Assembly (NCBI GenBank): GCA_022841445.1
Contig: JALHRM010000001.1
Span: forward strand, 387,777-451,776
DNA length: 64,000 bases
Source of the DNA: Candidatus Saccharimonadota bacterium
GTDB taxonomy: Bacteria; Patescibacteriota; Saccharimonadia; Saccharimonadales; UBA10212
Direction: 5' to 3'
In this document: positions 7,421 through 55,400 of the stretch, in pieces
Position numbering within the stretch: the stretch's first letter is position 1
How the letters are laid out: every line of letters begins with the position of its first letter
Position numbers and translations under genes: made by a program
Notes under the pieces: model-generated
Databases searched by the model: none
The model's input: only the letters and a program-made list of their open reading frames with translations
What the model was told of the DNA's origin: nothing

Positions 7421-7433
7421 AATGTTAATTATA
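7421..7433 (-). promoter_or_regulatory. -10 box placed for a leaderless start at ATG 7420
   Basis: The minus strand reads TATAAT (7433-7428), then 7 nt (taacatt), then ATG (7420-7418). Confidence 0.5.
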
Positions 7434-7489
7434 ACTACTTGAACTTGATTATAATAATAGTCCCAGATATCTTCTGCTAAAAGCTTTTT

Positions 7490-7517
7490 TTGGCAGAGAC
7501 TAAGTATGCAATATAAT
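7490..7517 (+). promoter_or_regulatory. promoter giving a leaderless mRNA for the 7525 ORF
   Basis: TTGGCA (7490-7495), a 16-nt spacer, TATAAT (7512-7517), then 7 nt and ATG 7525. There is no SD. Confidence 0.55.
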
Positions 7518-7524
7518 AAACTAT

Positions 7525-7737
7525 ATGGATTCGACACCTCCAAGAGAAGAACCAGCTATAGCCTCAAGATTTGGTAGTCGTAGGGATGCTGCGCTTGCTG
7601 GGGTGTGCATAGGGATTCCTTTTGCGGCAGAAGTATTGCCTATACCGACCGAAGCTCGCCACACCTTGTTAGCCGTAGCTATAGGTGCTGGTGCAGTATT
7701 GATAAAACGTCTTTTTACCAGCCAAGAAGTTACATAA
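7525..7737 (+). CDS. small hypothetical membrane protein (70 aa)
   Basis: It has a leaderless-type promoter and two hydrophobic stretches (AALAGVCIGIPFAA, LLAVAIGAGAVLI). Confidence 0.45.
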   Translation: MDSTPPREEPAIASRFGSRRDAALAGVCIGIPFAAEVLPIPTEARHTLLAVAIGAGAVLIKRLFTSQEVT

Positions 7738-7847
7738 ATCTTTATATGAATGATCAGGTATTAGAACTATCCATGCGCGACTAGACACGGACTCCGTCCT
7801 GCGACTCTCTTTACAATAAGCCATAAATGTAATATAAAAATAACATT

Positions 7848-8384
7848 ATGTCAGTTCATAGTTTGCAAAAGCCCCCCGGCGGTATAGATATTCCAGAAGC
7901 CGAATTACCGATATTGGAGCTCGCGACGGATTTGATTAAGGTTCGGGATCGTTATCAGCTCGGGGCTGCTGCATTGGGAGTGGCGGGTGCATTAGGAATG
8001 GTGAGTAATCCAACGCTAAATCAGCCTCCCGAACTCGCAATATTCACACCAGATGGAGAATTGATCACAGCGTATGGTACTTTTCAGTGGCGCTGGTGCT
8101 TACAACTTAACATGGTATCCGGTAGGCCGGGAGTGAGATGGACGGATGTAATACAGCGTATTATTGATGGTCCGAGAGATGATGAAAGAGCAGAGCAATT
8201 AGCCGACATGCTCGCTGCTGGAGTTGACGGTACTTATGAAATTGAGTCGGGTAAACCACTGTCTGTACAAAAGCGAAAATTCCTATATTGCGGACTAGTC
8301 GCCCTTGCAGTTGCTCAGCGCGGTCATGGAAACGAACCAATCTGGCCGGAGGCGTTTGCGGGTCAAGCGGTAGGTGGACGATAA
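7848..8384 (+). CDS. hypothetical protein (178 aa)
   Basis: A long ORF with no competing frame. No motif was recognised. Confidence 0.5.
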   Translation: MSVHSLQKPPGGIDIPEAELPILELATDLIKVRDRYQLGAAALGVAGALGMVSNPTLNQPPELAIFTPDGELITAYGTFQWRWCLQLNMVSGRPGVRWTDVIQRIIDGPRDDERAEQLADMLAAGVDGTYEIESGKPLSVQKRKFLYCGLVALAVAQRGHGNEPIWPEAFAGQAVGGR

Positions 8385-8396
8385 ACCACAGGTGTT

Positions 8397-9251: not shown

Positions 9252-9365
9252 GGATACATAAGCAATATCATAAGATTGTGCGTTGTAAAATAGTGTTGTG
9301 TAGTATTGACCCAAAATGCTTGTCCGTGACATTATCCTTTGTACAACAAAGTAGGAGGGTAACAT

Positions 9366-9938
9366 ATGAGACGAAAGTCTATGAATGGTCCGCTTGTTCG
9401 TGCGGTTGGGGTAATATCCGCAGTTATGCTGCTAGTAACCAGTGCGACGTTCGCGGCATTGCAAAGCCAGCAGGCATTGCTTACAGGCAACACCATCGAA
9501 AGTGCCACAGCTGATTTGCGTATAGGCACATCGGCAACGAGTTTTGGAGCAACTAGGGCGGGGTTTGATTTTGAAGATATTGTTCCGGGTGGTTCGTCAC
9601 AGCCAGCTGATGGGCATGTATTTTATCTAAAGAACTATGGCAGCGCCGCGCTTAATCTGCGCATGTCAGTCGGATCCGTACCGACTAATCCTTCGGCGGT
9701 AGACTTGTCCAAAGTTTACGTTCATATGACAAGAGTCGACAGTGGTACAGTGTTTAATTCGACACTGCAAGACCTGACCAACAGCTACGCAACCAATGGG
9801 ATGGCCGTTACCGAACCTATCGCTCCAGGTGCGGTTGTGCAATATAAACTGCGTGCTTCAATGGCGATTGACGCGTTCAGTGGCTCGGGAGCGAGCATCG
9901 GCGCGGTAGACTTTGTCTTTAGTGGTATTGCTCCGTAG
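9366..9938 (+). CDS. TasA/camelysin-like secreted protein with a SipW-dependent-type signal peptide
   Basis: A GGAGG SD is present. The N-terminus is MRRKSMNGPLVRAVGVISAVMLLVTSATFAALQSQQALLTGNTIESATADLRIG, a signal followed by an A-x-F-A..GN-x-f..a..l motif. The body is beta-rich. It lies directly upstream of a SipW-type peptidase. Confidence 0.55.
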   Translation: MRRKSMNGPLVRAVGVISAVMLLVTSATFAALQSQQALLTGNTIESATADLRIGTSATSFGATRAGFDFEDIVPGGSSQPADGHVFYLKNYGSAALNLRMSVGSVPTNPSAVDLSKVYVHMTRVDSGTVFNSTLQDLTNSYATNGMAVTEPIAPGAVVQYKLRASMAIDAFSGSGASIGAVDFVFSGIAP

Positions 9939-9950
9939 TTAAGGAAAGCA

Positions 9951-12741: not shown

Positions 12742-13125
12742 TTGGTTGTTAACCAGAATGGTAATTCGTGGTCACTCCCCAAAGGCCATATTGAACCAGG
12801 TGAAGATGAAGTAGCTGCTGCCATTCGCGAAGTTTACGAAGAAGCGGGCATTAAAGAAGTGAGAGTTATCAAGAAGCTCGGTCAGTACGAACGATACCGG
12901 ATTGGCCTCAGTGAAATAGAAGATAAGGCAATTCTGAAGTCCATAACAATATATTTAATGACTACGAACGAGGTAGACCTGCAGCCATTAGATCCGCATA
13001 ATCCAGAAGCTCGCTGGGTCAAGCCCGACGAGGTCGAATCGTTACTGACAAATCCGAAGGATAAGGCGTTCTACGCCGGCGTTCTACCTGAAGTTAAACA
13101 GTTTATCGCTACGCTTCAATCGTAA
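12742..13125 (+). CDS. NUDIX hydrolase. The N-terminal 13 codons lie in another frame from ATG 12698.
   Basis: The Nudix box is GHIEPGEDEVAAAIREVYEEAGI. The upstream MSSKTFSAGGVVV (12698-12736) is the expected first strand but is one frame off. Confidence 0.75.
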   Translation: MVVNQNGNSWSLPKGHIEPGEDEVAAAIREVYEEAGIKEVRVIKKLGQYERYRIGLSEIEDKAILKSITIYLMTTNEVDLQPLDPHNPEARWVKPDEVESLLTNPKDKAFYAGVLPEVKQFIATLQS

Positions 13126-14056: not shown

Positions 14057-14091
14057 TTGTTACTCCTACTAAGTTAGCTGTTTTATGAAAC

Positions 14092-14115
14092 GAAAAAACC
14101 GGCCCCAGGCCGGTT
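14092..14115 (-). terminator. intrinsic terminator inside the 5' leader of the 13109-14056 gene
   Basis: The minus strand reads ACCGGCC-UGG-GGCCGGU followed by UUUUUUCG. It lies about 40 nt upstream of the SD and ATG. Confidence 0.65.
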
Positions 14116-14228
14116 TGCGTATGTGCTGCACAATCAGTGCTATACCAGCCTGGGGCGGGGCATAGGCATCATGTGGTGCTGTGCGATAATCATTTAATAA
14201 TGATAAGTGTATTTAGGTGCTCCGTCAA

Positions 14229-14257
14229 TTGTCAAAGTACTAAATAAGTTATATAAT
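14229..14257 (+). promoter_or_regulatory. promoter giving a leaderless mRNA for the 14265 ORF
   Basis: TTGTCA (14229-14234), a 17-nt spacer, TATAAT (14252-14257), then 7 nt and ATG 14265. The -35 overlaps a minus-strand TTGACA (14235-14230). Confidence 0.6.
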
Positions 14258-14264
14258 ATTGCTT

Positions 14265-14849
14265 ATGTCTAAGCGAATAAATCCAGATAGCTCAGGTCCA
14301 GATCATTTTACAGCTCAAGAAATTCGTGTTTTTGGATTGGATGCTCTGAATATTAGATTAGGTATGCAGCCAAGTCCTGAGCAAGTTCACCAGCTTGCGG
14401 TTATTTCGGAAACTGTCTGTACTGATCCGGCAACCTATCGAGGCAGGGCTGCCGTAAACATAGACCCTACTGGATACCAAAGCACTTGTTTACCAACACG
14501 AGAAGGACGGTCATTGATGGTGTATTGGAATCCAGAAAATAATCCGGATGCTTCTGGTATGCCTGTGCCTGCCAACATAGTTGTGCGTGGTTTTCGCAGT
14601 TTTACAGAAAATGAGAAAAAGGCGCGCCTATCACTAAGAAGGCCAAAAGTATATGAAGTGCAGGATTCGCTATACATTACTGCTGATAACGAAGCACGAT
14701 TACTGAGGAAAATGTGGGGTGCTGGAAGGGCTTATGGTCGTGTGCCAATGCTCATGGCAACAAAGCCAGCCACAGCATCAGACGTGGAACTTGCTATAGT
14801 TGCAATAGTCGAAGCCGTACGTTATACAGAACGTACCCAAGAAGGTTAA
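14265..14849 (+). CDS. hypothetical protein (about 194 aa)
   Basis: A long ORF. ATG 14265 is preferred to the TTG at 14259 because of the promoter spacing. Confidence 0.5.
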   Translation: MSKRINPDSSGPDHFTAQEIRVFGLDALNIRLGMQPSPEQVHQLAVISETVCTDPATYRGRAAVNIDPTGYQSTCLPTREGRSLMVYWNPENNPDASGMPVPANIVVRGFRSFTENEKKARLSLRRPKVYEVQDSLYITADNEARLLRKMWGAGRAYGRVPMLMATKPATASDVELAIVAIVEAVRYTERTQEG

Positions 14850-15989: not shown

Positions 15990-15990
15990 A

Positions 15991-16992: not shown

Positions 16993-17118
16993 TTTGAACA
17001 CCTCTCATTTAAGAAGTTATATTGCTACTAAGTATACCAGTAAAACTATATTAACAGAGACAAAAATTAATGGTTGGCTCATTCTTGGCAATAATTTTGT
17101 TAGAATGGGTCTTGATGT

Positions 17119-17484: not shown

Positions 17485-17514
17485 TTGACATCCAGCGTAC
17501 TAGTGTGCTAGTAT
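17485..17514 (+). promoter_or_regulatory. promoter giving a leaderless mRNA for the TrpR/YerC-like gene
   Basis: TTGACA (17485-17490), an 18-nt spacer, TAGTAT (17509-17514), then 6 nt and ATG 17521. Confidence 0.6.
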
Positions 17515-17520
17515 GCTGAT

Positions 17521-17796
17521 ATGAAAGATGATAAAAAACGTTTTAATGAGCTCGTGGAACTCATTTATTCGGCAGACAGTAAGGCGCTGCTCAATGATCT
17601 ACTTGTTGGCATCACAACGCCTGCCGAGCGCGAAGCACTTACTAATCGGATTGAAATTGTCCGCAGACTATTAAAAGGTGACCCACAAGCAGATATTGCC
17701 GCTGACCTTGGTGTTGGTATAGCTACTGTTACTCGCGGTTCACGTGAACTTGCCGATGGCAGGTTCAAAATATTGCGAGGAAATAATGACGATTAA
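17521..17796 (+). CDS. TrpR/YerC/YecD-family DNA-binding protein
   Basis: LLNDLLVGITTPAEREALTNRIEIVRRLLKGDPQADIAADLGVGIATVTRGSRELADG fits the YerC/TrpR helix-turn-helix pattern. Confidence 0.75.
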   Translation: MKDDKKRFNELVELIYSADSKALLNDLLVGITTPAEREALTNRIEIVRRLLKGDPQADIAADLGVGIATVTRGSRELADGRFKILRGNNDD

Positions 17797-19601: not shown

Positions 19602-19648
19602 GCCTTGCGCCACTAGCGTTTCGCTACAGGTCTAGTAGAATAGTAGTA

Positions 19649-20002
19649 ATGAACTCTAAGCGCTATTTGCATGACCGCTTTGTACTTTCTATGGTTACCG
19701 CCATGAGTATATTGGTGGTAGTTGGACTCAGTTCGGTGTTGCTTAGGTTTGATTCCGGTAAGAATCCCACAACTGTTGCAGAATATCGCCAGAGTTTGTC
19801 GTCGAGTGGCTATATTGCCGGAACCCCAATTGATATTTACTTGATGGGCATTTTTATTATCCTAGTTGCCGTCATGGCATTAGTACTCAGCCGCAAAATT
19901 TATTCAATCAGGCGGTTTGTTTCCTATTTTTTGTTGGCAGGAACTAATTTCTTACTCATTCTGACTATTATTGTGTCTAACGCATTAATTAACTTGCAAT
20001 GA
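19649..20002 (+). CDS. small membrane protein (117 aa, 3 TM)
   Basis: It has three hydrophobic helices. TAGAAT (19636-19641) lies 7 nt before the ATG. The stop overlaps the next start (ATGA). Confidence 0.5.
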   Translation: MNSKRYLHDRFVLSMVTAMSILVVVGLSSVLLRFDSGKNPTTVAEYRQSLSSSGYIAGTPIDIYLMGIFIILVAVMALVLSRKIYSIRRFVSYFLLAGTNFLLILTIIVSNALINLQ

Positions 20003-21597
20003 ACATACAGGATCTTGAAATTCCGCATCCGCATGAGCGCGATTGGCGCTATCGTGTATTCGAAATATTACCCGCAGTTCTTACTTGGTTAGTGCTCGCT
20101 TTGCCACTTTTGCTCGGGCTTTTTAGTCCCGATATTGCGGCGGTGTTTGTTATCGCGTATATGCTGTTGTGGTTCTTTCGAGCGATTGGGCTCAACATGC
20201 GCTCGCTTCAGGGTAATCGAATGATGAATCAGCACAAGAAACTCCGCTGGGATCAGCTTAATAATGATCTTGAAAATCTAAAAGTCACGATGTCGCATTC
20301 CCCAAAGTGGCACGGAGAAAACATTGCACGTGTTGCACGCGATCAAGCGCAGCGTAAGCGAGTAAAGCCATCCGAAGTAATTCAAGCGGTCGTAATTGCC
20401 ATGTACAAGGAAACTCGCGACACACTGGAACCTACCATGGAAGCAGTGTTGGCATCCGAGTACAACCCTAAGCAGGTTGTTATAGTTATCGCCTATGAAG
20501 AGCGGGGCGGTGAAGATGCCGAAAAACTGGCCAATTGGCTAGTCAAAACCTACCAAAATAAGTTTATGCACATTATGGCGGTAAAGCATCCAAAAGACAC
20601 TCCCGGTGAGGTTGTAGGAAAGGGCGGCAATATTACCTACGCAGCCAGACGTTTGCAGAAGTATCTAGAATCCCAAATGATCGAGCCTCGCCGAGTACTT
20701 GTTACGACATTAGATGCCGATAACCGTCCTGACAAAAAATATTTTGGGGCCCTAGCGTACACCTTCTGTTCAACCGACGACCCGAAACATGTTTCGTACC
20801 AGCCGATCGCTATGTATCTTAACAATATTTGGGATGCGCCGGCACCGATGCGCGTCATTGCCACCGGTAACTCATTCTGGATGGTTATTCAAACATTAAG
20901 GCAGCACACGCTCAGAAATTTCTCAGCACACGCCCAGCCAATGGAGGCCTTGATAGATACTGGTTTTTGGAGTGTACGTACCATAGTAGAAGACGGTCAT
21001 CAGTTCTGGCGAACCTACTTTCGCTATGACGGTAAGCACGAGGTGTTCCCGATATTTGTACCAGTGTACCAGGATGCCGTATTAAGCGATGGCTATGTAC
21101 GTACGCTTCGAGCACAGTTCGTACAATTGCGTCGCTGGGCGTGGGGGGCAAGCGATATCGCCTATGTGGTTAAGATGGGGTACCAGACAAAGAATAAGTT
21201 ACCCAGGGTCGACTTATTGTTCAAGACCCTTCGTCTTATCGAGGGTCATTTAAGCTGGGCTACGGCACCGCTCATTATTACCTTTGCTGGCTATTTGGCA
21301 CTACTGTTTAATCCGGAAAGTTATATCAGTAATCAAATTCCGATTATTGCTAGCCAGGTGATGACGATTGCACTCGGCGGTATATTGATCACCCTATTTT
21401 TAAGTTTGCGCAGCTTGCCACCAAAACCATTACGATATAGACGTCATCGAACATTATGGATGGTGCTGCAGTGGGTATATTTACCTGTGACGACAATCGC
21501 CTACAGCTCTTTTGCGGCTCTGTACTCACAGACGAGACTTGCCTTCGGTAAATACTTGGATAAATTCGACTTCACCGAAAAAGCTGTCAAAAAATAG
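19999..21597 (+). CDS. integral-membrane processive family-2 glycosyltransferase (cellulose/chitin/PNAG-synthase-like)
   Basis: VVIAMYKE, TLDADNRPD, VEDGHQ and the QxxRW motif QLRRWAWGA are present. TM helices flank the domain at both ends. Confidence 0.75.
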   Translation: MNIQDLEIPHPHERDWRYRVFEILPAVLTWLVLALPLLLGLFSPDIAAVFVIAYMLLWFFRAIGLNMRSLQGNRMMNQHKKLRWDQLNNDLENLKVTMSHSPKWHGENIARVARDQAQRKRVKPSEVIQAVVIAMYKETRDTLEPTMEAVLASEYNPKQVVIVIAYEERGGEDAEKLANWLVKTYQNKFMHIMAVKHPKDTPGEVVGKGGNITYAARRLQKYLESQMIEPRRVLVTTLDADNRPDKKYFGALAYTFCSTDDPKHVSYQPIAMYLNNIWDAPAPMRVIATGNSFWMVIQTLRQHTLRNFSAHAQPMEALIDTGFWSVRTIVEDGHQFWRTYFRYDGKHEVFPIFVPVYQDAVLSDGYVRTLRAQFVQLRRWAWGASDIAYVVKMGYQTKNKLPRVDLLFKTLRLIEGHLSWATAPLIITFAGYLALLFNPESYISNQIPIIASQVMTIALGGILITLFLSLRSLPPKPLRYRRHRTLWMVLQWVYLPVTTIAYSSFAALYSQTRLAFGKYLDKFDFTEKAVKK

Positions 21598-21626
21598 TTG
21601 CACTTATAACAATATAGTTATATAAT
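21598..21626 (+). promoter_or_regulatory. promoter giving a leaderless mRNA for the 21634 ORF
   Basis: TTGCAC (21598-21603), a 17-nt spacer, TATAAT (21621-21626), then 7 nt and ATG 21634. Confidence 0.55.
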
Positions 21627-21633
21627 AATTTAT

Positions 21634-21945
21634 ATGACACGACCACATCAAGAACCAGTTGATTTTGACGATTTACACATTGCAGCTCGACTCGTGCGAG
21701 AAAGTGCAAGTGGAGGCGACACTGCTACACCCGGAGCAGTATTATTAGCTGCAAGATGGCTGATTGATCCGAGATTCGATGCAACTTCTCTAGATCCAGC
21801 AATGAGCGTGGAGGATATTCAGACTGGAAGAGATCTACGTTTGAGTATCCTAAGGGGCTATGGTGTTGTGGGCGAACCAGCAACCCCGGACGACTCTACG
21901 GCCGTTGCCCCGAAAATCATCAGCGACACCTGGGGCACTTTCTGA
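21634..21945 (+). CDS. hypothetical protein (103 aa)
   Basis: An ORF with a leaderless-type promoter. Confidence 0.45.
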   Translation: MTRPHQEPVDFDDLHIAARLVRESASGGDTATPGAVLLAARWLIDPRFDATSLDPAMSVEDIQTGRDLRLSILRGYGVVGEPATPDDSTAVAPKIISDTWGTF

Positions 21946-23365: not shown

Positions 23366-23389
23366 TATTAAACCAAGGAGGACTACCGA

Positions 23390-29637: not shown

Positions 29638-29877
29638 CTAGGCTTTTGGGGCGGCTGCAGTCTCAGCAGCTTTGGTGGGCACGGCGGTATCAATAAGACC
29701 CTTTTTCTTGAGAGTGCGTAGTGCTTGGGTGCTGATCTTCATACGGACTTTTTTACCGTCAATTATCAGAGTTTTGTTCTGTAGGTTCGGCTTCCAGACT
29801 TTCTGGGTACGGCGTTGAGAGAAGCTCACATTGTGGCCGTATTGTTTGCCTTTACCGGTTAGTTCACATCGTTGCAT
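29638..29877 (-). CDS. rpmB: 50S ribosomal protein L28
   Basis: MQRCELTGKGKQYGHNVSFSQRRTQKVWKPNLQ. Confidence 0.9.
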   Translation of the reverse strand: MQRCELTGKGKQYGHNVSFSQRRTQKVWKPNLQNKTLIIDGKKVRMKISTQALRTLKKKGLIDTAVPTKAAETAAAPKA

Positions 29878-29918
29878 AGAGTCTTATTCTATCCGTTTAA
29901 CAGATGAAAGTCAAGTAT

Positions 29919-30082: not shown

Positions 30083-30122
30083 GCTAGATGAGTGCGTTCG
30101 TGTCGGTTATACTGTATAGCTG

Positions 30123-30752
30123 ATGGACGGCAATATTCTTATGACTCTGGCGATTGTGATACCGGTTTTACTGGTATCAATGTCGATTCATGAAACAATG
30201 CACGGACTGGCCGCCTTGTGGCTTGGTGACGAAACCGCCAAAGACGAAGGTCGAATTTCCATAAACCCGATAAAGCATATAGACCCTTTCTTGACGATTG
30301 CTTTGCCCGCGCTACTCGCGGTAATTGGCGCGCCTATATTCGGTGCGGCTAAGCCGGTGAATATAGATATGAGAAGCGTCAGATGGGGCGAATTTGGCGG
30401 TGCGATTATTGGTATTATCGGCCCGATATCAAACCTGGTCATCGCTATTATCGCCGCTATGTTGCTGAGAAACTTTGAAGTATTCCAATCAGGAATATTG
30501 CTCGAAATTCTACGTTTCACGTTGCTTATAAACGTTGGATTCTTTATCTTTAACTCTATTCCGTTTCCACCCCTAGATGGCTCTAGACTGTTATATGCTT
30601 TTGCTCCAGAGCCAGTGCAGCGGTTTATGGATTCGATTGAACAGTTCGGGCTAGTCGGATTCTTTATCTTTATGTTGTTATTCTTCCAGTTCTTAAGTCC
30701 TATCATTGGTAGGCTATCGAGCATGCTGACCGCCGGTTTGCTTGGAATTTAG
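30123..30752 (+). CDS. site-2 protease (M50) family membrane metalloprotease
   Basis: HExxH occurs in SIHETMHGLAA. The second motif is FNSIPFPPLDGSRLL. The protein is polytopic. Confidence 0.8.
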   Translation: MDGNILMTLAIVIPVLLVSMSIHETMHGLAALWLGDETAKDEGRISINPIKHIDPFLTIALPALLAVIGAPIFGAAKPVNIDMRSVRWGEFGGAIIGIIGPISNLVIAIIAAMLLRNFEVFQSGILLEILRFTLLINVGFFIFNSIPFPPLDGSRLLYAFAPEPVQRFMDSIEQFGLVGFFIFMLLFFQFLSPIIGRLSSMLTAGLLGI

Positions 30753-30948
30753 CAATCAAAGCAGGGTGTATACTTAAAGTGCCTGGTCGGCACATTTAAT
30801 TTTCTGAACAATCGTTTACGATGGGGAGTCCAAAATGCGGCATGGTCCGTGGACCATTCGTGCGGACACCCACTTTGCTTTCGCAGAGAAATTGGATGTG
30901 TCGTCGGGCATTTTGTTTTAGCACAACGCTCTAAGTTAAAATATCTTA

Positions 30949-31485
30949 ATGGCAATATATTTTGTAAGACATGGTGAAAGCCAAGCTAACCTTGACGAAG
31001 TTTTTGCTGGTAGTGGTGATGATTCTCCGCTTACAGAACTGGGTAGACAGCAAGCTAAATCCGCAGCAGCAGATTTAGAAGGAGTAAAAGTTGATAGAAT
31101 TATTTCGTCTCCTCTTAGCAGGGCAAAAGATACCGCCGGTATCATTGCTCGAGAAATAAGGTATTTAAGTGATATAAAAGTTGATGATCGGATTAGAGAA
31201 TACAACCTTGGAGAACTCGCTGGTAGGTCTGTATACCCAAAGAGAACTTCAGAGGAACTTGTTTCCGCACAAGGCGCGGAGGATCCAAAATTATTCTTGG
31301 AACGTATACGGAGCTTCTTGTTAGATTACAAAAATGCTAAAGGTAATATATTGATGGTGTGTCATGCAGGAATCGGTAGAATGATTGAGGCGGATCGCAT
31401 AGGACTTGACCCCTCATCTTTCTATGAGCAAGATGCGCCGCCAAATGCTCATGTAATCAAGCTCGATTTGGGCTGGCTCAACTGA
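30949..31485 (+). CDS. histidine phosphatase (phosphoglycerate-mutase-like) family protein
   Basis: The RHG motif is IYFVRHGESQANL. VCHAGIGR is also present. TAAAAT lies 6 nt upstream of the ATG. Confidence 0.75.
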   Translation: MAIYFVRHGESQANLDEVFAGSGDDSPLTELGRQQAKSAAADLEGVKVDRIISSPLSRAKDTAGIIAREIRYLSDIKVDDRIREYNLGELAGRSVYPKRTSEELVSAQGAEDPKLFLERIRSFLLDYKNAKGNILMVCHAGIGRMIEADRIGLDPSSFYEQDAPPNAHVIKLDLGWLN

Positions 31486-33597: not shown

Positions 33598-34641
33598 TTA
33601 TACCTGTGCAAACAATGGTAATGCAGGCTGCCGCTTGGCAATGGACGTCGGGTGCCCACTCATGCCTAGCTCTTCTTTGATATCAATAATTGCTCGAACG
33701 GCTGTAACTTTGAGTTCGCTTTGTGGTGATTGCTTCATATGCTCAGCATAACGGTGGATGCCAATTACCTCGGAGTCGAGCTCGTTTGGTGGCGTGAGGA
33801 TGGTTTCGAGAGTTACATCATCATAACCGGGCAATCCATTCGCTTCCGTATATTCTCTAAACCTATTTTCAAAACTCCTATATAACTCTGCGAGCGGATT
33901 ATCTTGTGCCAAAGATGCTCTTGTAAGGAAGTAAAGAGCCTCCAGTGCGACGGCGAGTTGCTGGGGGTTGCGGTAACGTAACGTCCTAAATTCTACTCTG
34001 TGATTGCCGCCGAGCCAGGTTTTTTCTTCCTCGGTAAGTCCAGCATCTTGAACATAGACTCCGCCAAAACCTTTTTGCGCCCATGATCTTTCCGGGAGCA
34101 CGCGATGTGTACGGCTATGTGGGTCACAGGCAGCCATGAGCCGACCAACTGTTGTGCCGCCAAGCTGTTCAGCTACACGGAGTATTCGTAAAAAGTTCGG
34201 TATTTTTTCGTCAGGATTTTCCAACTCGTTTCTGCCAAAGCCGATGCTAATGTGACTAGTAACGACACTTTTTGCTCTGCGGGGTAGGATTCCAGCCCGT
34301 ACAATACCAACGGTGGCTAAATAAAGTGATTTTGGGTGCCAGGCAACGGGCGATTGTATTTCATAATGACCATCATGTGCAGCAGTAAATCCTGTATCTG
34401 CAAACCTGTGCCTGTTTTTACTTACAATATGGTCAATAACTGGCTGGTCATCACATGGGCGAGAAAGACCAAGTGCCCGTGCTGTGCCTGTTTCAAAAAT
34501 TGCGTTTCCTAGTATCTCAGCCTCATAGCCAATCGTATAGTCAGGCGTGCCGGTATTGTCTAAACGCAGGCCAGCTTCTAGTTCTCGCGCTGCTAAGTAG
34601 CCGTTATGTTGAAGCATCTGCATAGAATCAGTAGCATGCAT
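33598..34641 (-). CDS. possible glutamine-synthetase-fold carboxylate-amine ligase (amidoligase/GCS2-like)
   Basis: IGYEAEILG, DGHYEIQSP and TSHISIGFG resemble the GxExE / EIxSP / HxHxG pattern of amidoligases. The promoter is leaderless-type. Confidence 0.3.
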   Translation of the reverse strand: MHATDSMQMLQHNGYLAARELEAGLRLDNTGTPDYTIGYEAEILGNAIFETGTARALGLSRPCDDQPVIDHIVSKNRHRFADTGFTAAHDGHYEIQSPVAWHPKSLYLATVGIVRAGILPRRAKSVVTSHISIGFGRNELENPDEKIPNFLRILRVAEQLGGTTVGRLMAACDPHSRTHRVLPERSWAQKGFGGVYVQDAGLTEEEKTWLGGNHRVEFRTLRYRNPQQLAVALEALYFLTRASLAQDNPLAELYRSFENRFREYTEANGLPGYDDVTLETILTPPNELDSEVIGIHRYAEHMKQSPQSELKVTAVRAIIDIKEELGMSGHPTSIAKRQPALPLFAQV

Positions 34642-34647
34642 ATAGTT

Positions 34648-34676
34648 ATTATATAATAATATTTGCTAATATGCAA
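34648..34676 (-). promoter_or_regulatory. promoter giving a leaderless mRNA for 33598-34641
   Basis: The minus strand reads TTGCAT (34676-34671), a 17-nt spacer, TATAAT (34653-34648), then 6 nt and ATG 34641. Confidence 0.55.
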
Positions 34677-34682
34677 TAATAT

Positions 34683-35213
34683 TCAGCGCTGAATAGCGGA
34701 TAGAATTCTCTGCAAGGGGCGGCGTTTATGATAGTTAATTACGGTGCGAGATTCATGTATGTCTTGTAGTTTTGGTACCGTAGCTCCAGCTACAGCACCT
34801 GCGACAATACCGTAGAAGGCATCATAATGGTTGGTTACGCCGCTTTCCCATCCCAGAAAGTTATAGCTGGTTTTTGTCTCAACTGCAAGATTTGCTGCGC
34901 TTGCAAGTGCAAGCGCAGCACCACCAACTTTAAGTCTGAACCGGGATATAAAAGCACCTCGGTCTTGCGACTCAACGGCATATTCACGATTTGATGCAGA
35001 TAAAACTCCAGCAACACCAACCATTACTCCCATACTGCCAGATGCAAGAACGTTCCCGACGCTATTACTCACATCCACAGGATCGGGCAGGGCGCCGCGT
35101 CCACTAGGCATAAATTTGGCTGATGTAGCTAAAAGACTGCCGCCAATCAAGGTAGCAACTCTCTGCCATGAAGTAGTGATTCTATACCGGTGTGTTTCTG
35201 ATTCTAGCGACAT
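34683..35213 (-). CDS. hypothetical Gly/Ala-rich membrane protein (176 aa)
   Basis: An ORF with several Gly/Ala-rich hydrophobic stretches. Confidence 0.4.
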   Translation of the reverse strand: MSLESETHRYRITTSWQRVATLIGGSLLATSAKFMPSGRGALPDPVDVSNSVGNVLASGSMGVMVGVAGVLSASNREYAVESQDRGAFISRFRLKVGGAALALASAANLAVETKTSYNFLGWESGVTNHYDAFYGIVAGAVAGATVPKLQDIHESRTVINYHKRRPLQRILSAIQR

Positions 35214-35295
35214 CCAGGTGATTATTATAAAATATATGGGGTAGATTATAAAGTTGTTCGTGGTATGTACGATTTTGAGTTAATATAAGAGTTAT

Positions 35296-35988
35296 ATGTG
35301 GCAAAAAACGAACAATGGGTTGTATCAAAAATTTGAGTTCAAGGATTTTGATGAAGCGTTTAATTTTATGACGAGTGTTGCGGTGCTGGCGAGGCAACAC
35401 AATCATCATCCGGTCTGGAAAAATAACTGGAATAAAGTAGAAATCTGGCTTTCAACGCATAGTGCAGATGGCGCAATTACCGCCAAGGATGAAGCACTTG
35501 CCAGTGCAATTAGTGAACAAATAACAGATGAAAAATCCGATAATGTTGAAAAAAAGTCAACAACACGGGTAAACATTAAGGAAGCCAAATTGTATACGGA
35601 TGGTGGTTCTCGCGGGAACCCAGGGCCATCTGCCGGAGCGTATGTTATTTTTGATCTCGATGACACCATCGTAGAAAAAAACGGCTACTATATCGGCATT
35701 ACGACGAATAATCAGGCAGAATATCAGGCGCTTCGGCGCGGGCTCGAACGTGCTCGTGATTTGAATATCAGAAAACTACACGTGTATATGGACAGTCTAC
35801 TTGTTATTAATCAAATGAAGGGCTTATTCAAGGTAAAAAACCGCGAACTTTGGGCGGTGTATGAGGCGGCATCCCAACTTGTTATTGAATCATTTGAAAG
35901 TGTTACGTTCACACATGTACCCAGAGAATTCAATAAAGATGCTGATGCAGAAGTGAATCGTGTCTTGGACGAAGAAGAAAGTAACTGA
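35296..35988 (+). CDS. fusion protein: pterin-4a-carbinolamine dehydratase-like domain plus RNase HI domain
   Basis: The N-terminal FDEAFNFMTSVAVLARQHNHHPVW...LSTHS is a PCD/DCoH signature. The C-terminus carries RNase H DEDD motifs: LYTDGGSRGNPGPS, TNNQAEYQAL, YMDSLLV and NKDADAEVN. Confidence 0.7.
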   Translation: MWQKTNNGLYQKFEFKDFDEAFNFMTSVAVLARQHNHHPVWKNNWNKVEIWLSTHSADGAITAKDEALASAISEQITDEKSDNVEKKSTTRVNIKEAKLYTDGGSRGNPGPSAGAYVIFDLDDTIVEKNGYYIGITTNNQAEYQALRRGLERARDLNIRKLHVYMDSLLVINQMKGLFKVKNRELWAVYEAASQLVIESFESVTFTHVPREFNKDADAEVNRVLDEEESN

Positions 35989-41347: not shown

Positions 41348-41399
41348 TTGGTGGTAAGGTTGTTTCCCGATGAGTTCTCGTCACGTATAATACATATAT

Positions 41400-41846
41400 A
41401 TGAGTATTCAATCTTCGGGATTTCCTGCCGGACAGGAATCTGCTCCGTTCCCTGCGCCTCATCCTGAGCAGTCAATAGGGCATGCCCCGGTGATGGTAGA
41501 GGCTGGTCAGGTGAATCCTGAGCTACACAGAGAATCTGACATGGGAAGTGCGCATGCAGCTGCTCCTCCAGTGGTTAATCCAGCATCTATCGCCGTGCCA
41601 TCACAGGCCGCAACGACCAGTTTTGCCACCCCTCAACCCCAGGCAACGCCCGTCTACACAGCGGCAGCAACAGATGACGAAGACCTTATTGCCAATGAAT
41701 GGGTGATCAGGGCAAAGAGCATCATTAGTCGAACTAGGGATGACCCACACGCCCAGAAACAAGAGCTGAGCAAGATAAAGGCTGAATACATCGAAAAGCG
41801 CTATGATAAAAAGATAAAATTGGCTGACGACGTAGTGGGCACATGA
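41400..41846 (+). CDS. hypothetical protein (148 aa) with a Pro/Ala-rich N-half and a helical C-half
   Basis: TATAAT (41386-41391) lies 8 nt before the ATG. The stop overlaps the next start (ATGA). Confidence 0.5.
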   Translation: MSIQSSGFPAGQESAPFPAPHPEQSIGHAPVMVEAGQVNPELHRESDMGSAHAAAPPVVNPASIAVPSQAATTSFATPQPQATPVYTAAATDDEDLIANEWVIRAKSIISRTRDDPHAQKQELSKIKAEYIEKRYDKKIKLADDVVGT

Positions 41847-49863: not shown

Positions 49864-49876
49864 GGTCTGAAGGCAT

Positions 49877-50337: not shown

Positions 50338-50366
50338 TTGACAACAGTAACGGTGCGGGGTACAAT
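50338..50366 (+). promoter_or_regulatory. consensus sigma70 promoter of the 16S rRNA gene
   Basis: TTGACA (50338-50343), a 17-nt spacer and TACAAT (50361-50366). Confidence 0.75.
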
Positions 50367-50419
50367 TGACTTCAATGTTTGTGAAGAGTCGTTTTTAAGG
50401 CGCTCTAAAAAACAGGACT

Positions 50420-50450
50420 TTAAAAATTTAGATAGTGCAAATCAACGTCA
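50420..50450 (+). other. 5' strand of the 16S processing stem
   Basis: TTAAAAATTTAGATAGTGCAAATCAACGTCA pairs over about 29 bp with 52309-52340 (TGACGTTTGATCTGCACTATCTAGATTTTTAA). Confidence 0.7.
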
Positions 50451-50569
50451 GTTCATTAGCACCATTTTTGGTGCGTTTGAATTGTTTTTTTCGAACAGAG
50501 CAATCTGTTCATATAAGTCAGTGTAACTTTAACTAGTTACATGTTCGATCTTAGTCAATAACAAATTCT

Positions 50570-52169
<1,600 letters not shown>

Positions 52170-52308
52170 CTAGGGAGAAACTAAGCAAAGAAATGACATT
52201 AGTCGTTTCGGAAGCTAGTCGATACTGATACGCTGGTTTCGGAAAGTAAGAGCTTGCCAGCATATATCTCCTTTAAGGAGACAGTACTAAGTTCTTCTCG
52301 TATATGAT

Positions 52309-52340
52309 TGACGTTTGATCTGCACTATCTAGATTTTTAA
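52309..52340 (+). other. 3' strand of the 16S processing stem
   Basis: It is complementary to 50420-50450. Confidence 0.7.
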
Positions 52341-52345
52341 GGGAA

Positions 52346-52377
52346 GCCACTCTGGCATAAGGAGTGGCTTTTTATTT
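52346..52377 (+). terminator. intrinsic terminator directly after the 16S unit
   Basis: GCCACTC-TGGCATAAG-GAGTGGC followed by TTTTTATTT. Confidence 0.75.
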
Positions 52378-52404
52378 ACCGAAACTTATTTGGTAGTTCT
52401 ATGT

Positions 52405-52433
52405 TTGGCGACGACGTTTGTTAGGAGTAATAT
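52405..52433 (+). promoter_or_regulatory. promoter giving a leaderless mRNA for the 1123-aa exoprotein
   Basis: TTGGCG (52405-52410), a 17-nt spacer, TAATAT (52428-52433), then 6 nt and ATG 52440. Confidence 0.5.
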
Positions 52434-52439
52434 CTAAGT

Positions 52440-55400
52440 ATGCTTAAGCGCTTAGCGCGTCGGTCTAAAGACGCCAGCAAAAACAATAAAGCGACCAAGA
52501 AACCGGCTATTAAAAATCAGCTTTCTTATGAAGAGGCTAAAGCCCGCAAGTTATTCCATAGCACGCCGGTTTGGGTTAGTGTCGTTGTGGTGCTACTTTT
52601 TAGTTCGTTCACTCTGTATAAAATAGCTGAAAATATTGGATCATCAGAAGCGGCTATACTCTTCAATGCTGATTATGAAAATGGTACTCAAACACCGCCT
52701 TGGGGCGGAGGGCAGTGTATAGCATCTTGGAGTTGTACGGTGTCTACTAACGCACCGCGGGAAGGTCGCTACTCGGCACGCTATGAAGTACGGGATGGTG
52801 ACTGTCCGGTAACGGGAGACAGGTGCTATGGTGAGCGCGCCGAAAGGCAGGGTGGTAGTGCGCCGAGTAGTGCTGAGGGGCAAGACCGCTGGTACAAATG
52901 GAGTATGAAGCTGGAAAACGGCTTTCCTAACAGTTCCGGCTGGCAGATACTTGGCCAGTGGCATTCCACCGGCAATGGACCTCCACCAGTAGAAATGAAC
53001 CTTTCTGGTCGTAATATCATGTTGCAAATAAACAAAGCTCGATTTGCTGGTGACACTAATCCTCCGGCGACTTTCCCTTGGCAGTACACTCTGCAGACTG
53101 GTCAGTGGTATGACTTCAAGTTCCATATTAAGTGGTCGGCTGGCGGGGCTGGGTTAGTCGAAGTCTGGGTGAACGGTCAAAAGCGTCCTACGTATACAGG
53201 TGCGACACTGCGGCCAAATGAAGGAACTTACTTTAAGCAGGGCTACTACCGTTGTACTTGTGTTAATGGAACAGGAATCGTTTACTACGATAATGTTCGA
53301 GCAACAACTACTGAGGCAGAACTTGGGGCAGGCGCGAGCACTCCAAGCCCCACTCCCACCCCAACACCGACTCCAACGCCTAGCCCCACCCCCACCCCAA
53401 CACAGCCATCCGACAGAGTGACTGTCGAAACTGCCCTAAGGAGTTTGACTGTACCGTGGGCGATGGAATTTACAAAAGACGGGCGGTATATGTACTTTAC
53501 GGAGCGGCCTGGACGCATCCGGGTTGCTGAACGGGGGGCGAACGGACAGCTAACGTTGAAACCCACTATCGCGACAGTCCCGGTAGGAAGTTCCGGTAAC
53601 GAAGAAGGCTTGCAGGGCATAGCACTTGACCCTAACTTTGCCAGTAACGGCTACCTCTACGTATATTATTCGATTAACACATCAAGCGGGAAGGGTAATC
53701 GCCTGGCTCGCTACACCGTGAATCAGTCGAATTTTACGGCCGGCTCACCAGTGACGCTGATTGATAATATCCCTGGCTACCAGTTCCATGATGGCGGACG
53801 CATTAAGTTTGGGCCTGATGGCTACCTCTATGTTGCGACGGGTGATGCTTCTGATAATGGCAGCCAAAACAGCCGTATCGCTCAAAATCTAGACTCACTA
53901 GGGGGTAAAATCTTGCGTATCCGGCCAACACCTGGCAACCTCACTCCGCTAGATAATCCATTCGGTACCACCGGCAATCGGTCGTTAGTATGGAGCTATG
54001 GTCACCGTAACCCTCAGGGTCTGGCCTGGAACCCGGTCAATAATGAAATGTGGGCAACGGAGCATGGACCAACTGGTACACCATGCTGTACTGACGAGGT
54101 TAATCGCATCGTGAAAGGTGGTAACTACGGCTGGCCAAAATTCTATGGAACTAACTCAAATTCTAATTTCTCGACTCAGTTCACCAATCTCACTTTGTCC
54201 AACACTATCGCTCCAGTTCGGTCTAGCGGTTCAGGAATTTGGGCTCCCGGTGGAGCCACTTTCTATGCAGGCAATCAGCTTACGGGGAATTGGAAGAATA
54301 GCCTGATGTTCACAGGTCTTGGTATTCAGGGGCGCACTGGTGCGCGGGCGTTATACAGGCTTAACTTAAATACCGATCAGCGTACGGTTCGTAGTATTGA
54401 AGAACTTTATAAGAACCAGTTTGGCCGAATACGTGACGTTATCCAAGCACCTGATGGGTCACTGTATCTGGCGACCAGTAACCGTGATGGACGGGGGAGT
54501 CCAACTAGCGATGATGACAGGATTATACGGCTAAAACCGGATGCTGTTATCCAAACTCCGACCCCGACACCTACGCCGACTCCCGTTCCAACTCCTACTC
54601 CCACGCCTCCAGCTCCGACCCCGACACCTACGCCGACTCCAGTCCCCATTCCACCGCAGAAACCACCGGTATCTATTCCTAAAGTGTTCCTTTCTACCAC
54701 TGCTGCCTCGGTGAATGTCGGACAATCTGTCAATTTATCATGGACTTCTACCGATAGTCCTACTAGCTGCAGGGCTTCTGGAGATTGGACTGGTACTAAA
54801 TCAGTTTCTGGTTCTCAAGCAACCGGAGCGCTTACTAACGTAAAAACGTACACCTACACAATTACCTGCAGCAATACAGCCGGAACAGCGAGCGCTTCGC
54901 GGTCAGTTATCGTCATACCAAGCAAACCGGTAGTTACATTACGCAGTTCATCTAGTTCTGTTACAGTCGGTCAATCCGTTAATTTATCATGGACTGCCAC
55001 TAATAACCCTACAAGTTGTACGGCCACAGGTGACTGGAGCGGCGTAAGGGCGGGTAACGGCGCACAGTCTAGCGGCGCACTAATAGCCGCGCGCGCTCAC
55101 ACATATACGATTACTTGCGTAAATGCGGGGGGCACAGGCAGCGCAGCGCTCTCTGTAAATGCTCGCGCAGTCGGTATCGCTACACCAACCATCCAAAAAC
55201 CAACCGTTAAATTGACGGCGACTCCAACTACGCTAAACAGTGGTCAAAAATCAATCCTGCAGTGGTCTACAGGTAATAATCCGTCTTCTTGTACAGCATC
55301 TGGTGATTGGAGCGGCACAAAATCTACCTCCAACGGCAGTCAGGGAACTGGCGCACTTACTTCTGGAAAAACGTATACCTTAACATGTACTAACGCCGGA

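What the first reader, a model, noticed from the sequence alone, without database searches (positions are those of the whole stretch)
7421..52442. Recurrent TTGnnn-17-TATAAT-(6-8 nt)-ATG architecture implies leaderless mRNAs, concentrated on orphan genes
At least nine genes have a -10 hexamer ending 6-8 nt before the start codon and no SD. The -10 to ATG gaps are:
- 7420 (minus strand): TATAAT, 7 nt.
- 7525: TATAAT, 7 nt.
- 14265: TATAAT, 7 nt.
- 17521: TAGTAT, 6 nt.
- 19649: TAGAAT, 7 nt.
- 21634: TATAAT, 7 nt.
- 34641 (minus strand): TATAAT, 6 nt.
- 41400: TATAAT, 8 nt.
- 52440: TAATAT, 6 nt.

30949 (TAAAAT, 6 nt) is a further, weaker candidate. Six of them also have a TTG-type -35 at a 16-18 nt spacing (7525, 14265, 17521, 21634, 34641, 52440). 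That spacing puts the transcription start on or next to the A of the ATG.

Other genes in the window (9366, 23390, 55948, 56660, 60990, 62234) use classical GGAGG SDs. The 16S retains the CCUCC tail. So two initiation modes appear to coexist.

The leaderless set is enriched for proteins of unknown function.
Basis: seen in the sequence. Interest (0 to 1): 0.6.

Follow-up and report, generated by a model that had tools for sequence, protein, structure and literature searches.

The report
Leaderless-type promoters in a Saccharibacteria genome
In this piece of a Saccharibacteria (TM7) genome about a dozen genes have a promoter -10 box 6-8 bases before the ATG, so their mRNAs should start at the start codon; relatives keep the same layout, which is a known kind of gene organisation (as in Actinobacteria and Deinococcus) that I did not find described for this phylum.

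Summary
All ten -10/ATG spacings are in the sequence as stated. Good -10 hexamers pile up 6-8 nt before ORF-opening ATGs: 7 against 2.2 expected in the window, and 159 against 29 in 1,675 ORFs of the window plus 160 related loci. An E. coli control gives 1 against 1.8. The layout is conserved within gene families (orthologues of 41400, 30123, 1641, 7420, 14265 and 34641).

The hexamers behave as promoters. A TTG -35 lies 16-18 nt upstream at 8 of 12 window sites. Half of the pooled hexamers carry a TGn extension, against 7% elsewhere. The base before the ATG is a pyrimidine in about 80% of gap-6/7 sites.

The leaderless reading, alongside SD-led genes, is therefore well supported, but only by comparative evidence; no transcription starts are mapped.

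The claim that the set is concentrated on orphan genes is not supported (Fisher p=0.075, or 0.33 once missed sites such as XerC and L28 are added). ATG 7420 opens only 10 codons because of a -1 frameshift in a T7 run. The 7525 ORF may not be a gene.

The architecture matches GeneMarkS-2 "group C": a new member of a known kind.

The parts
1639..1677 (-). Leaderless-type promoter plus start of the XerC/D-like recombinase gene (721-1641). Extended -10 TGcTACAAT at 1648-1653, 6 nt, ATG 1641.
   Evidence: The Pfam N-terminal SAM domain begins at residue 7. Among orthologues, L081, L083, L098 and L106 have TACAAT + 6 nt + ATG, and L099 has TAAAAT + 6.
7418..7457 (-). TATAAT at 7428-7433, 7 nt, ATG 7420. 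This is the true start of the membrane-protein gene ending at 6834, but a T7 run (7398-7404) breaks the frame after 7 codons.
   Evidence: Homologue N-termini (MHLYRVLF...) align with the T8-corrected MDEVRVFF.... Homologues L165, L166 and L167 have TATAAT + 6-7 nt + GTG start.
7488..7527 (+). TTGGCA (7490-7495)-16-TATAAT (7512-7517), 7 nt, ATG 7525. This is an 11/12 consensus promoter. The 70-aa ORF 7525-7737 is of doubtful reality.
   Evidence: 11 of 12. There are no true homologues among 1.84 billion representatives. The coding score is weak and an antisense frame scores higher.
14228..14267 (+). TTGTCA (14229-14234)-17-TATAAT (14252-14257), 7 nt, ATG 14265 (194-aa protein, no Pfam hit).
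   Evidence: 11 of 12. The public NCBI protein P0011 has the same start. The syntenic relative L168 keeps TATAATattgcttATG base for base, while the proteins are 62% identical.
17485..17523 (+). TTGACA (17485-17490)-18-TGcTAGTAT (-10 at 17509-17514), 6 nt, ATG 17521 (TrpR/YerC-like, 91 aa).
   Evidence: 10 of 12, TG present. Pfam Trp_repressor matches from residue 7. The annotated frame has the best coding score.
19612..19651 (+). TAGAAT (19636-19641), 7 nt, ATG 19649 (117 aa; first gene of a pair with 19999-21597). No TTG -35.
   Evidence: Orthologues carry cTTACAAT/TAAACT 8-14 nt before the ATG, giving leaderless or very short leaders.
21597..21636 (+). TTGCAC (21598-21603)-17-TATAAT (21621-21626), 7 nt, ATG 21634 (103 aa). 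The whole promoter fills the 36-nt spacer after the stop codon of the upstream gene.
   Evidence: The annotated frame has the best coding score. No orthologue was examined.
29875..29915 (-). TTGACT (29909-29914)-17-TAGAAT (29886-29891), 8 nt, ATG 29877: ribosomal protein L28.
   Evidence: 10 of 12. Pfam Ribosomal_L28 matches from residue 2. Most orthologues instead have a leader of about 20 nt with AAGGA.
30913..30951 (+). TTGTTT (30913-30918)-18-TAAAAT (30937-30942), 6 nt, ATG 30949 (histidine phosphatase family).
   Evidence: Pfam His_Phos_1 profile position 1 aligns with residue 3.
34639..34677 (-). TTGCAT (34671-34676)-17-TATAAT (34648-34653), 6 nt, ATG 34641 (347 aa, no Pfam hit).
   Evidence: The public protein P0013 has the same start. 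Three distant homologues have aligned N-termini. L171 has TATAAT + 6 + ATG; L172 has TATAAT + 17 nt with AGAGGA.
41362..41402 (+). TATAAT (41386-41391), 8 nt, ATG 41400 (148 aa; conserved Saccharibacteria protein upstream of the 1095-aa gene and gyrB).
   Evidence: Orthologues in 58 loci carry TGnTATAAT 6-14 nt before the ATG, mostly 6-9 nt, although the protein N-terminus is poorly conserved.
52404..52442 (+). TTGGCG (52405-52410)-17-TAATAT (52428-52433), 6 nt, ATG 52440 (1123 aa; polysaccharide lyase + GSDH domains). AGGAG lies directly 5' of the -10, 12 nt from the ATG.
   Evidence: A hairpin plus T-run after the 16S gene (52345-52373, read) leaves only about 65 nt for a promoter.
30084..30125 (+). 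Near-leaderless: TATACT (30108-30113), 9 nt, ATG 30123 (M50-like membrane protein).
   Evidence: Orthologue family: 19 of 25 members have TGnTATACT/TATAAT 6-8 nt before the ATG.
35211..35298 (.). Divergent near-leaderless pair: TATAAT (35224-35229), 10 nt, ATG 35213(-); and TAATAT (35281-35286), 9 nt, ATG 35296(+).
   Evidence: In the first family analysis, 4 of 13 orthologues of 35296 have a 5/6 hexamer at gap 5-9.
9353..9368 (+). Comparator: classical SD AGGAGG, 7 nt, ATG 9366. Other SD comparators: 23376-23392 (+), 56649-56662 (+), 61572-61584 (-), 62232-62243 (-).
52150..52169 (+). 3' end of the 16S rRNA with the anti-SD CCTCC (52162-52166).

Best explanation
The window comes from a Candidatus Saccharibacteria (TM7, Patescibacteria/CPR) genome. 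About a quarter of its transcription units start with a sigma-70-type promoter whose -10 hexamer ends 6-8 nt before the ATG, and up to about 37% if gaps of 9-12 nt are counted.

RNA polymerase usually starts about 7 nt after the -10 and prefers a purine that follows a pyrimidine. The transcript should therefore begin at the A of the AUG, or 1-2 nt before it. That leaves no room for a Shine-Dalgarno sequence.

By analogy with Actinobacteria and Deinococcus, such mRNAs are inferred to be translated by ribosomes binding the 5'-terminal AUG directly. Other genes in the same genome use short leaders with GGAGG-type SDs that pair with the retained CCUCC tail of the 16S rRNA. A third group has neither signal.

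The trait is clade-wide. Orthologues toggle between leaderless and short SD-leader forms.

Shown here: the sequence architecture, its statistical excess, its conservation, and its promoter-like features. Inferred: the transcription start position and the mode of translation.
For: 1. Taxon: gyrB relatives are Saccharibacteria MAGs.
2. Position peak at gap 6-8 before ORF-opening ATGs: window 7 against 2.2 expected; gyrB loci 54 against 8.7; thrS loci 54 against 9.3 and 44 against 8.4; pooled 159 of 1,675 against 28.6 expected. E. coli control: 1 against 1.8.
3. TGnTAnnnT upstream of ORFs peaks at gap 6 (48), 7 (27), 8 (25) and 9 (20), against 2-4 per position further upstream.
4. Family level: 8 of 51 families with at least 4 members have the layout in 40% or more of members, against 1 family at a control offset. 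58 of 611 families have at least one such member.
5. Orthologue conservation despite diverged flanks: the 41400 family, XerC, the 30123 family, the 7420 family, 14265 and 34641.
6. Promoter features: a TGn extension at 50% of these hexamers against 6.7% of other hexamers (p=2.5e-45; 33% when each family counts once). TTG -35 at 8 of 12 window sites (p=3e-7). The two protein-gene promoters scoring 11 of 12 among the 60 kb scanned (1-60000) are leaderless-type, and the third 11-of-12 site precedes the 16S gene.
7. A pyrimidine at -1 in 84% of gap-6 sites and 78% of gap-7 sites, against 56% of other starts. At gap 8 the -1 base is A in 43% of sites.
8. The starts are right: Pfam domains or homologue N-termini begin within 1-7 residues of these ATGs. 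The public NCBI annotation uses the same starts for 14265 and 34641.
9. Spacers of 36-52 nt after upstream genes hold exactly one promoter.
Against: No transcription start is mapped for this genome or its relatives here.

Four of the sites (19649, 21634, 34641, 41400) follow a same-strand gene by only 36-52 nt. Read-through transcripts, in which the ATG is internal and lacks an SD, cannot be excluded.

The counts in relatives are not independent, because orthologues repeat. The taxonomy of loci L116-L160 was not verified.

My ORF calls are crude (longest ORF, first ATG).

Two claimed sites have problems: 7420 is frameshifted and the 7525 ORF has no homologues.

The start-codon test (ATG-only) did not discriminate: 89% ATG at leaderless-type starts against 91% at SD starts. 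Homologues of the 7420 gene use GTG.
Confidence: 0.8

Rival explanations
1. Chance: intergenic DNA is AT-rich, so TANNNT hexamers fall near ATGs without any function.
For: The loose TANNNT pattern is common (2,259 in the window) and shows almost no peak on its own in the window. The total count of promoter-like sites at 9 of 12 matches equals the shuffles.
Against: There is a sharp gap-6-8 peak for hexamers with at least 5 of 6 matches, set against flanking offsets in the same upstream regions. E. coli shows no peak. The layout is conserved in orthologues. TGn and TTG are enriched, and 9 of 30 sites fall exactly on gene starts against 0.9 expected.
Confidence: 0.02
2. The hexamers are A/U-rich translation signals (a non-SD ribosome-binding or unstructured region, as proposed for Bacteroidetes-type genomes) inside leadered mRNAs whose promoters lie further upstream.
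For: Many genes here lack an SD (about 25 of 61), so some non-SD mode must exist. No transcription starts are mapped. A/U-rich sequence near starts favours initiation in general (established knowledge; discussed in PMC5397173).
Against: The motif is specifically TAnnnT with TGn immediately 5' and TTG 16-18 nt upstream. These are RNA polymerase contacts, not ribosome contacts. The -1 pyrimidine rule fits a transcription start. The motif is absent before operon-internal genes such as gyrA, 19999, 25240 and 41843. In families that toggle, the same -10 motif sits 17-30 nt upstream and is then followed by an SD.
Confidence: 0.07
3. The promoters are real but minor. Most protein comes from read-through polycistronic transcripts or from downstream alternative starts, so leaderless translation contributes little.
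For: Four sites follow same-strand genes by 36-52 nt. 41400 has an in-frame GTG with GAGG 37 codons downstream.
Against: Eight of 12 sites are divergent from, or more than 75 nt from, the upstream feature. 52440 follows a hairpin plus T-run after the 16S gene. Pfam and homologue N-termini fit the leaderless ATGs. Orthologues of 41400 keep the M-[ND]-P start next to the -10.
Confidence: 0.1

Closest known systems
GeneMarkS-2 'group C' bacterial genomes (Actinobacteria such as Mycobacterium tuberculosis; Deinococcus-Thermus), PMC6028130
   Same: A Pribnow-type box 6-8 nt from the start of first-in-operon genes. SD sites serve the remaining genes. The predicted leaderless share of operons is 25-50%. 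In the window my tally of the table gives about 26%, or up to about 37% with gaps of 9-12 nt.
   Different: The phylum differs: CPR/Saccharibacteria, with a small genome of 46% GC. Many promoters in the relatives are of the extended -10 (TGn) type. I could not check whether Saccharibacteria were assigned to group C, because the supplement is not held.
Deinococcus radiodurans '-10-motif adjacent to ORFs' (TANNNT), PMC12340547
   Same: A TANNNT motif next to ORFs acts as the promoter -10 for leaderless genes. [quoted passage not shown]
   Different: That case was validated experimentally; this one was not. About 30% of ORFs carry the motif there. Here 9.5% of ORFs have a 5/6 hexamer at gap 6-8, of which about 8% is in excess of background.
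Mycobacterial leaderless transcripts starting with AUG or GUG (own knowledge: Cortes et al. 2013; Shell et al. 2015)
   Same: Abundant leaderless genes. Homologues of the 7420 gene have TATAAT + 6-7 nt + GTG, which recalls the use of GUG in mycobacteria.
   Different: There are no TSS or translation data here, and the GTG starts are annotation-based.
Archaeal leaderless genes (GeneMarkS-2 group D)
   Same: mRNAs without a 5' UTR that coexist with SD-led internal genes.
   Different: The archaeal promoter box sits about 26 nt upstream. Here the signal is a bacterial -10 at about 10 nt, with a -35/TGn.

Membership tests
Bacterial leaderless-gene architecture (GeneMarkS-2 group C type) | A -10 (Pribnow, TANNNT) motif localised 6-8 nt upstream of the start codon, in excess over other offsets | tested here: met
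   negative control in E. coli.
Bacterial leaderless-gene architecture (GeneMarkS-2 group C type) | The motif belongs to first genes of transcription units, not to operon-internal genes | tested here: met
   All 12 window sites have at least 36 nt of upstream spacer or a divergent neighbour. Tightly coupled genes (gyrA, 19999, 25240, 41843) lack the motif.
Bacterial leaderless-gene architecture (GeneMarkS-2 group C type) | SD-type RBS coexists for other genes, and the anti-SD is retained in the 16S rRNA | tested here: met
   By my tally, about 18 of 61 genes have an AGGAGG core of at least 4 nt at 4-10 nt spacing. CCTCC lies at 52162-52166. Families such as gyrB and L20 have an SD in 78-97% of members (63 of 81 and 28 of 29) and none is leaderless-type.
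Bacterial leaderless-gene architecture (GeneMarkS-2 group C type) | Mapped primary 5' end within 0-5 nt of the start codon | not testable with these tools
   No transcriptome is available. The TM7x RNA-seq TSS paper (PMID 35975994) is not held.
Bacterial leaderless-gene architecture (GeneMarkS-2 group C type) | Translation initiates at the 5'-terminal start codon | not testable with these tools
   The only indirect support is that Pfam and homologue N-termini agree with these ATGs.
Sigma-70-type promoter | A -35 TTGnnn element 16-18 nt upstream of the -10, and/or a TGn extended -10 | tested here: met
   TTG at 8 of 12 window sites against 7.3% background. TGn at 50% against 6.7% in pooled sites. 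In relatives the -35 is only weakly enriched (12% against 7%).
Sigma-70-type promoter | A purine start preceded by a pyrimidine about 7 nt after the -10 | tested here: met
   The A of the ATG is at +7/+8, and the -1 base is a pyrimidine in 84% and 78% of gap-6 and gap-7 sites against 56% elsewhere. In the window 10 of 12 sites have T at -1.
The set includes L28, XerC, a TrpR-like protein, a histidine phosphatase and a lyase/GSDH protein.

The most novel reading that the evidence does not exclude
Leaderless or near-leaderless initiation is the main way first-in-unit genes are expressed throughout Saccharibacteria, and possibly more widely in CPR bacteria. Orthologues toggle quickly between a leaderless form and a leader of about 15-25 nt with an SD (L28, ThrRS, and the 27184 and 34641 families), and GUG-initiated leaderless mRNAs also occur. 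This would be a previously undescribed translational trait of bacteria that have reduced ribosomes. It would also affect gene-start calling in thousands of CPR MAGs.
Probability: 0.5. Interest if true: 0.5.

Novelty: new member of a known kind. Interest (0 to 1): 0.35.

Why it matters
Practical value: start codons in Saccharibacteria/CPR MAGs are usually called with SD-centred models. A known leaderless signal would improve start calls and promoter prediction. It would also help the design of expression cassettes for the newly tractable Saccharibacteria, where so far only the tuf and rpsJ promoters have been borrowed (PMC10633639).

Biological value: it adds a deep-branching, genome-reduced phylum to the short list of bacterial lineages with abundant leaderless genes. 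This bears on whether leaderless initiation is ancestral or arises repeatedly. It also gives natural orthologue pairs (leaderless against SD-led) for testing the cost and benefit of each mode.

It is not a new mechanism.

Tried and rejected
1. Exact look-ups of window proteins (52440, thrS, P0011) returned nothing, so there were no precomputed gene calls for the source contig. I used my own ORF calls instead.

2. A metagenome pattern scan with the 34641 protein found no relatives. The protein database later gave three distant homologues.

3. Start-codon identity as a test of leaderless translation was not informative: ATG in 89% of leaderless-type starts against 91% of SD starts.

4. The total number of promoter-like sites does not differ from shuffles. 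Only the top-scoring sites and their position relative to ATGs are informative.

5. I considered that the gap-6 excess could arise because in-frame TAA/TAG stops delimit the ORFs. The E. coli control, the exact-TATAAT profile and the TGn profile argue against this.

6. Literature: full-text searches pairing 'leaderless' with Saccharibacteria, Patescibacteria or candidate phyla radiation found no paper describing this. The TM7x TSS paper and the relevant supplements are not held. Absence from this library does not prove that the trait is unpublished.

7. The cluster look-up gave no accession for the source genome.

Full report
**Source and layout.** The window has 46% GC. It carries a 16S gene (50570-52169), the start of a 23S gene 10.5 kb further on (62708), RNase P RNA and eight tRNAs. 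The gyrB product is at most 80% identical to those of GTDB species representatives. Most of the named records are Candidatus Saccharibacteria or Saccharimonadales MAGs. The window is therefore part of a Saccharibacteria (TM7, Patescibacteria/CPR) genome. Two of its proteins occur in the public collection with 100% identity on a 464-kb NCBI contig.

**Checking the observation.** The six TTG-type -35 elements are also present at 16-18 nt. Two further ones exist, at 29877(-) and 30949. The 16S ends with CCTCC. There are five corrections:
- ATG 7420(-) opens only ten codons.
- 52440 has AGGAG 12 nt from the ATG, abutting the -10.
- The SD-led gene listed as '60990' starts at 61574(-).
- 55948 has GGGGGTGGA rather than GGAGG.

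**Is it more than chance?**
- In the window, TATAAT occurs 36 times and ATG follows at gap 7 five times. Other gaps average about 0.7.
- I made crude but unbiased ORF calls: non-overlapping ORFs of at least 80 aa, using the first ATG. Hexamers with at least 5 of 6 matches to TATAAT (T1, A2 and T6 fixed) lie at gap 6-8 seven times, against 2.2 expected from offsets 14-39 of the same upstream regions (p=0.007). Exact TATAAT gives 4 against 0.3.
- Of the 30 sites in the window of the form [5/6 hexamer, 6-8 nt, ATG], nine are gene starts, against 0.9 expected.
- Several of the remaining sites are promoters of RNA genes: the 16S (50338-50366, TTGACA-17-TACAAT), the tRNA-Ala/Ile pair (58024-57996, minus strand) and the tRNA-Thr region.
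- In the 60 kb scanned (1-60000), the two protein-gene promoters that match the consensus at 11 of 12 positions are 7525 and 14265. The third 11-of-12 site precedes the 16S gene.

**Relatives.** I fetched 80 Saccharibacteria loci around gyrB and 80 metagenome loci around thrS, 2.1 Mb in all.
- The same profile shows a sharp peak at gap 6-8 in each set: 54 against 8.7, 54 against 9.3 and 44 against 8.4.
- Pooled with the window, the count is 159 of 1,675 ORFs against 28.6 expected.
- Four 50-kb pieces of E. coli K-12, run through the identical script, give 1 against 1.8.
- With the more specific extended -10 pattern TGnTAnnnT the counts are 48, 27, 25 and 20 at gaps 6-9. Further upstream they are 2-4 per position.
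- Orthologues repeat among loci, so I clustered the ORFs. Eight of 51 families with at least four members have the layout in 40% or more of members, against one family at a control offset. 58 of 611 families have at least one such member.

**Conservation in single families.**
- Orthologues of 41400 in 58 genomes carry cTGtTATAAT or TGcTATAAT 6-14 nt (mostly 6-9) before an ATG that opens M-[ND]-P. The surrounding DNA and the protein N-terminus have diverged.
- XerC-like orthologues have TACAAT + 6 nt + ATG in four of eight loci and TAAAAT + 6 in a fifth.
- The M50-like family of 30123 has TGnTATACT/TATAAT at 6-8 nt in 19 of 25 members.
- Homologues of the 7420 membrane protein have TATAAT + 6-7 nt + GTG in three of three cases.
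- The one relative of 14265 keeps TATAATattgcttATG exactly, at 62% protein identity.
- A 34%-identical homologue of 34641 has TATAAT + 6 + ATG.

Conversely, some families toggle. L28 is leaderless-type here but has a leader of about 20 nt with AAGGA in most relatives. ThrRS is SD-led here (AAGGAGGA) but has TTGTCA...TGgTATTAT + 7 nt + ATG in other lineages. The 27184 family and the 34641 family show both forms.

**Are the hexamers promoters?** Three independent features say so.
1. TGn immediately 5' of the hexamer occurs at 50% of the 148 pooled sites, against 6.7% of 12,434 other hexamers of the same quality (p=2.5e-45). The figure is still 33% when each family counts once.
2. In the window, TTG lies 16-18 nt upstream at 8 of 12 sites, against a 7.3% background (p=3e-7). 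In relatives the -35 is only weakly enriched, so those promoters are mostly of the extended -10 type.
3. The base before the ATG is a pyrimidine in 84% of gap-6 sites and 78% of gap-7 sites, against 56% of other starts. At gap 8 it is A in 43% of sites. This fits the pyrimidine(-1)/purine(+1) start rule with +1 at the A of the ATG, or one base earlier at gap 8. It rests on established knowledge that the start lies about 7 nt after the -10, as also stated in PMC12641261.

**Are the ATGs the true starts?**
- Pfam domains begin within a few residues of them: His_Phos_1 at residue 3, L28 at 2, TrpR-like at 7 and the XerC SAM domain at 7.
- Homologue N-termini align for 34641 and 7420.
- The public annotation uses the same starts for 14265 and 34641.
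- A dicodon score favours the annotated frame for all sites except 7525.
- For 7420, homologues of 191-194 aa begin MHLYRVLF.../MRDIRIIL.... They align residue for residue with MDEVRVFF..., which is obtained only if the T7 run at 7398-7404 is read as T8. The promoter-adjacent ATG is therefore the real start, and the sequence has a -1 frameshift. The frameshift could be an assembly error, a pseudogene or slippage.
- The 70-aa ORF at 7525 has no true homologue among 1.84 billion representatives. Its promoter is strong, but what it drives is unclear.

**Shares in the window.** These are my own tallies of the start table.
- Of 61 genes, about 46 are first in a unit.
- Twelve of these are leaderless-type (26%).
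- Five more have the -10 at 9-12 nt (30123, 35296, 35213, 39247, 7848), which brings the share to about 37%.
- About 15 of the first-in-unit genes, and about 18 genes overall, have an SD core at 4-10 nt.
- The rest have neither signal. Some of them lie behind a short SD-less leader, for example 40994, with TGtTATAAT 22 nt upstream.

This matches the 25-50% predicted for GeneMarkS-2 group C genomes.

**The orphan claim.** Pfam was run on all window genes. The complete strong set has no hit in 6 of 11 cases, against 19 of 50 (p=0.33). The set contains L28, XerC, a TrpR-like regulator, a histidine phosphatase and a lyase/GSDH protein. The enrichment is not supported.

**Comparison with what is known.** The layout is the one described for GeneMarkS-2 group C genomes (Actinobacteria, Deinococcus-Thermus): a Pribnow box 6-8 nt from first-in-operon starts, with SDs elsewhere (PMC6028130). 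It has been validated experimentally in Deinococcus radiodurans (PMC12340547). Full-text searches pairing 'leaderless' with Saccharibacteria, Patescibacteria or candidate phyla radiation found no description of it in this phylum. An RNA-seq TSS set for TM7x exists but is not held. I rate the finding as a new member of a known kind. It is useful for annotation and for genetics of CPR bacteria, and moderately interesting for the evolution of initiation, but it is not a new mechanism. The main gap is the lack of mapped 5' ends.

Noticed in passing
window 7398-7404 (T7 on the minus strand), within 6834-7420(-): There is a -1 frameshift in a homopolymer run, seven codons into a conserved membrane-protein gene. 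With T8 the protein aligns end to end with homologues of 191-194 aa. The cause could be an assembly error, a pseudogene or a slippage/phase-variable tract.
   Followed up: partly
window 14090-14200, minus strand: A non-coding leader of about 100 nt lies between a promoter-like site (14235-14206, TTGACA-18-TACACT) and the SD-led gene 13109-14056(-). It ends in a hairpin plus T-run (14116-14096). About 85 nt are almost identical in relative L168, although the neighbouring proteins are about 62% identical. The fold z-score is -4.1, alternative pairings are possible, and no Rfam family matches. It is a candidate riboswitch or attenuator. Its -35 overlaps, back to back, the -35 of the leaderless promoter of 14265.
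   Followed up: partly
window 50338-52378 and 57600-58030 and 62708-64000: The rRNA genes are unlinked. The 16S has its own TTGACA-17-TACAAT promoter (50338-50366) and a hairpin plus T-run after it (52345-52373). The 23S starts 10.5 kb downstream. tRNA-Ala and tRNA-Ile lie between them on the opposite strand with their own TTGTCT-17-TAGAAT promoter (58024-57996). The 16S is 1,600 nt against a 1,533-position model, with extra sequence near 50640-50790.
   Followed up: no
L009-L110 (L28), L138-L158 (thrS), L082-L139 (27184 family), L172 (34641 family): Orthologous genes switch between a leaderless-type promoter and a leader of about 15-30 nt with an AAGGA/GAGG SD. Ribosomal protein L28 is leaderless-type in the window but SD-led in most relatives. 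ThrRS shows the reverse pattern.
   Followed up: partly
L165:1436-1503, L166:3-70, L167:1436-1503: Homologues of the 7420 membrane protein have TATAAT followed after 6-7 nt by a GTG start codon. This suggests GUG-initiated leaderless mRNAs, as in mycobacteria.
   Followed up: no
L081, L083, L099, L102, L106, about 30-50 nt upstream of the xerC-like ATG: A conserved motif, (c)attgtaacaga(t), lies upstream of the -10 of xerC-like genes in five relatives. It may be an operator or a recombination-related site. I did not see it clearly in the window.
   Followed up: no
L009-L110, upstream of orthologues of window 30123: A conserved aagtcaa(c/t) motif lies at roughly the -35 position of the TGnTATACT promoters of the M50-like gene family.
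   Followed up: no
window 7525-7737 (+): One of the two best consensus protein-gene promoters in the window (11 of 12) precedes a 70-aa ORF that has no homologues and a weak coding score. The transcript may be a small orphan protein, a non-coding RNA or a long leader of 7848-8384.
   Followed up: partly
window 14862-17001 (-): Two tandem paralogous genes with DUF1246/DUF1297 ATG-grasp domains lie here. From my own knowledge these resemble PurP-like archaeal-type enzymes.
   Followed up: no
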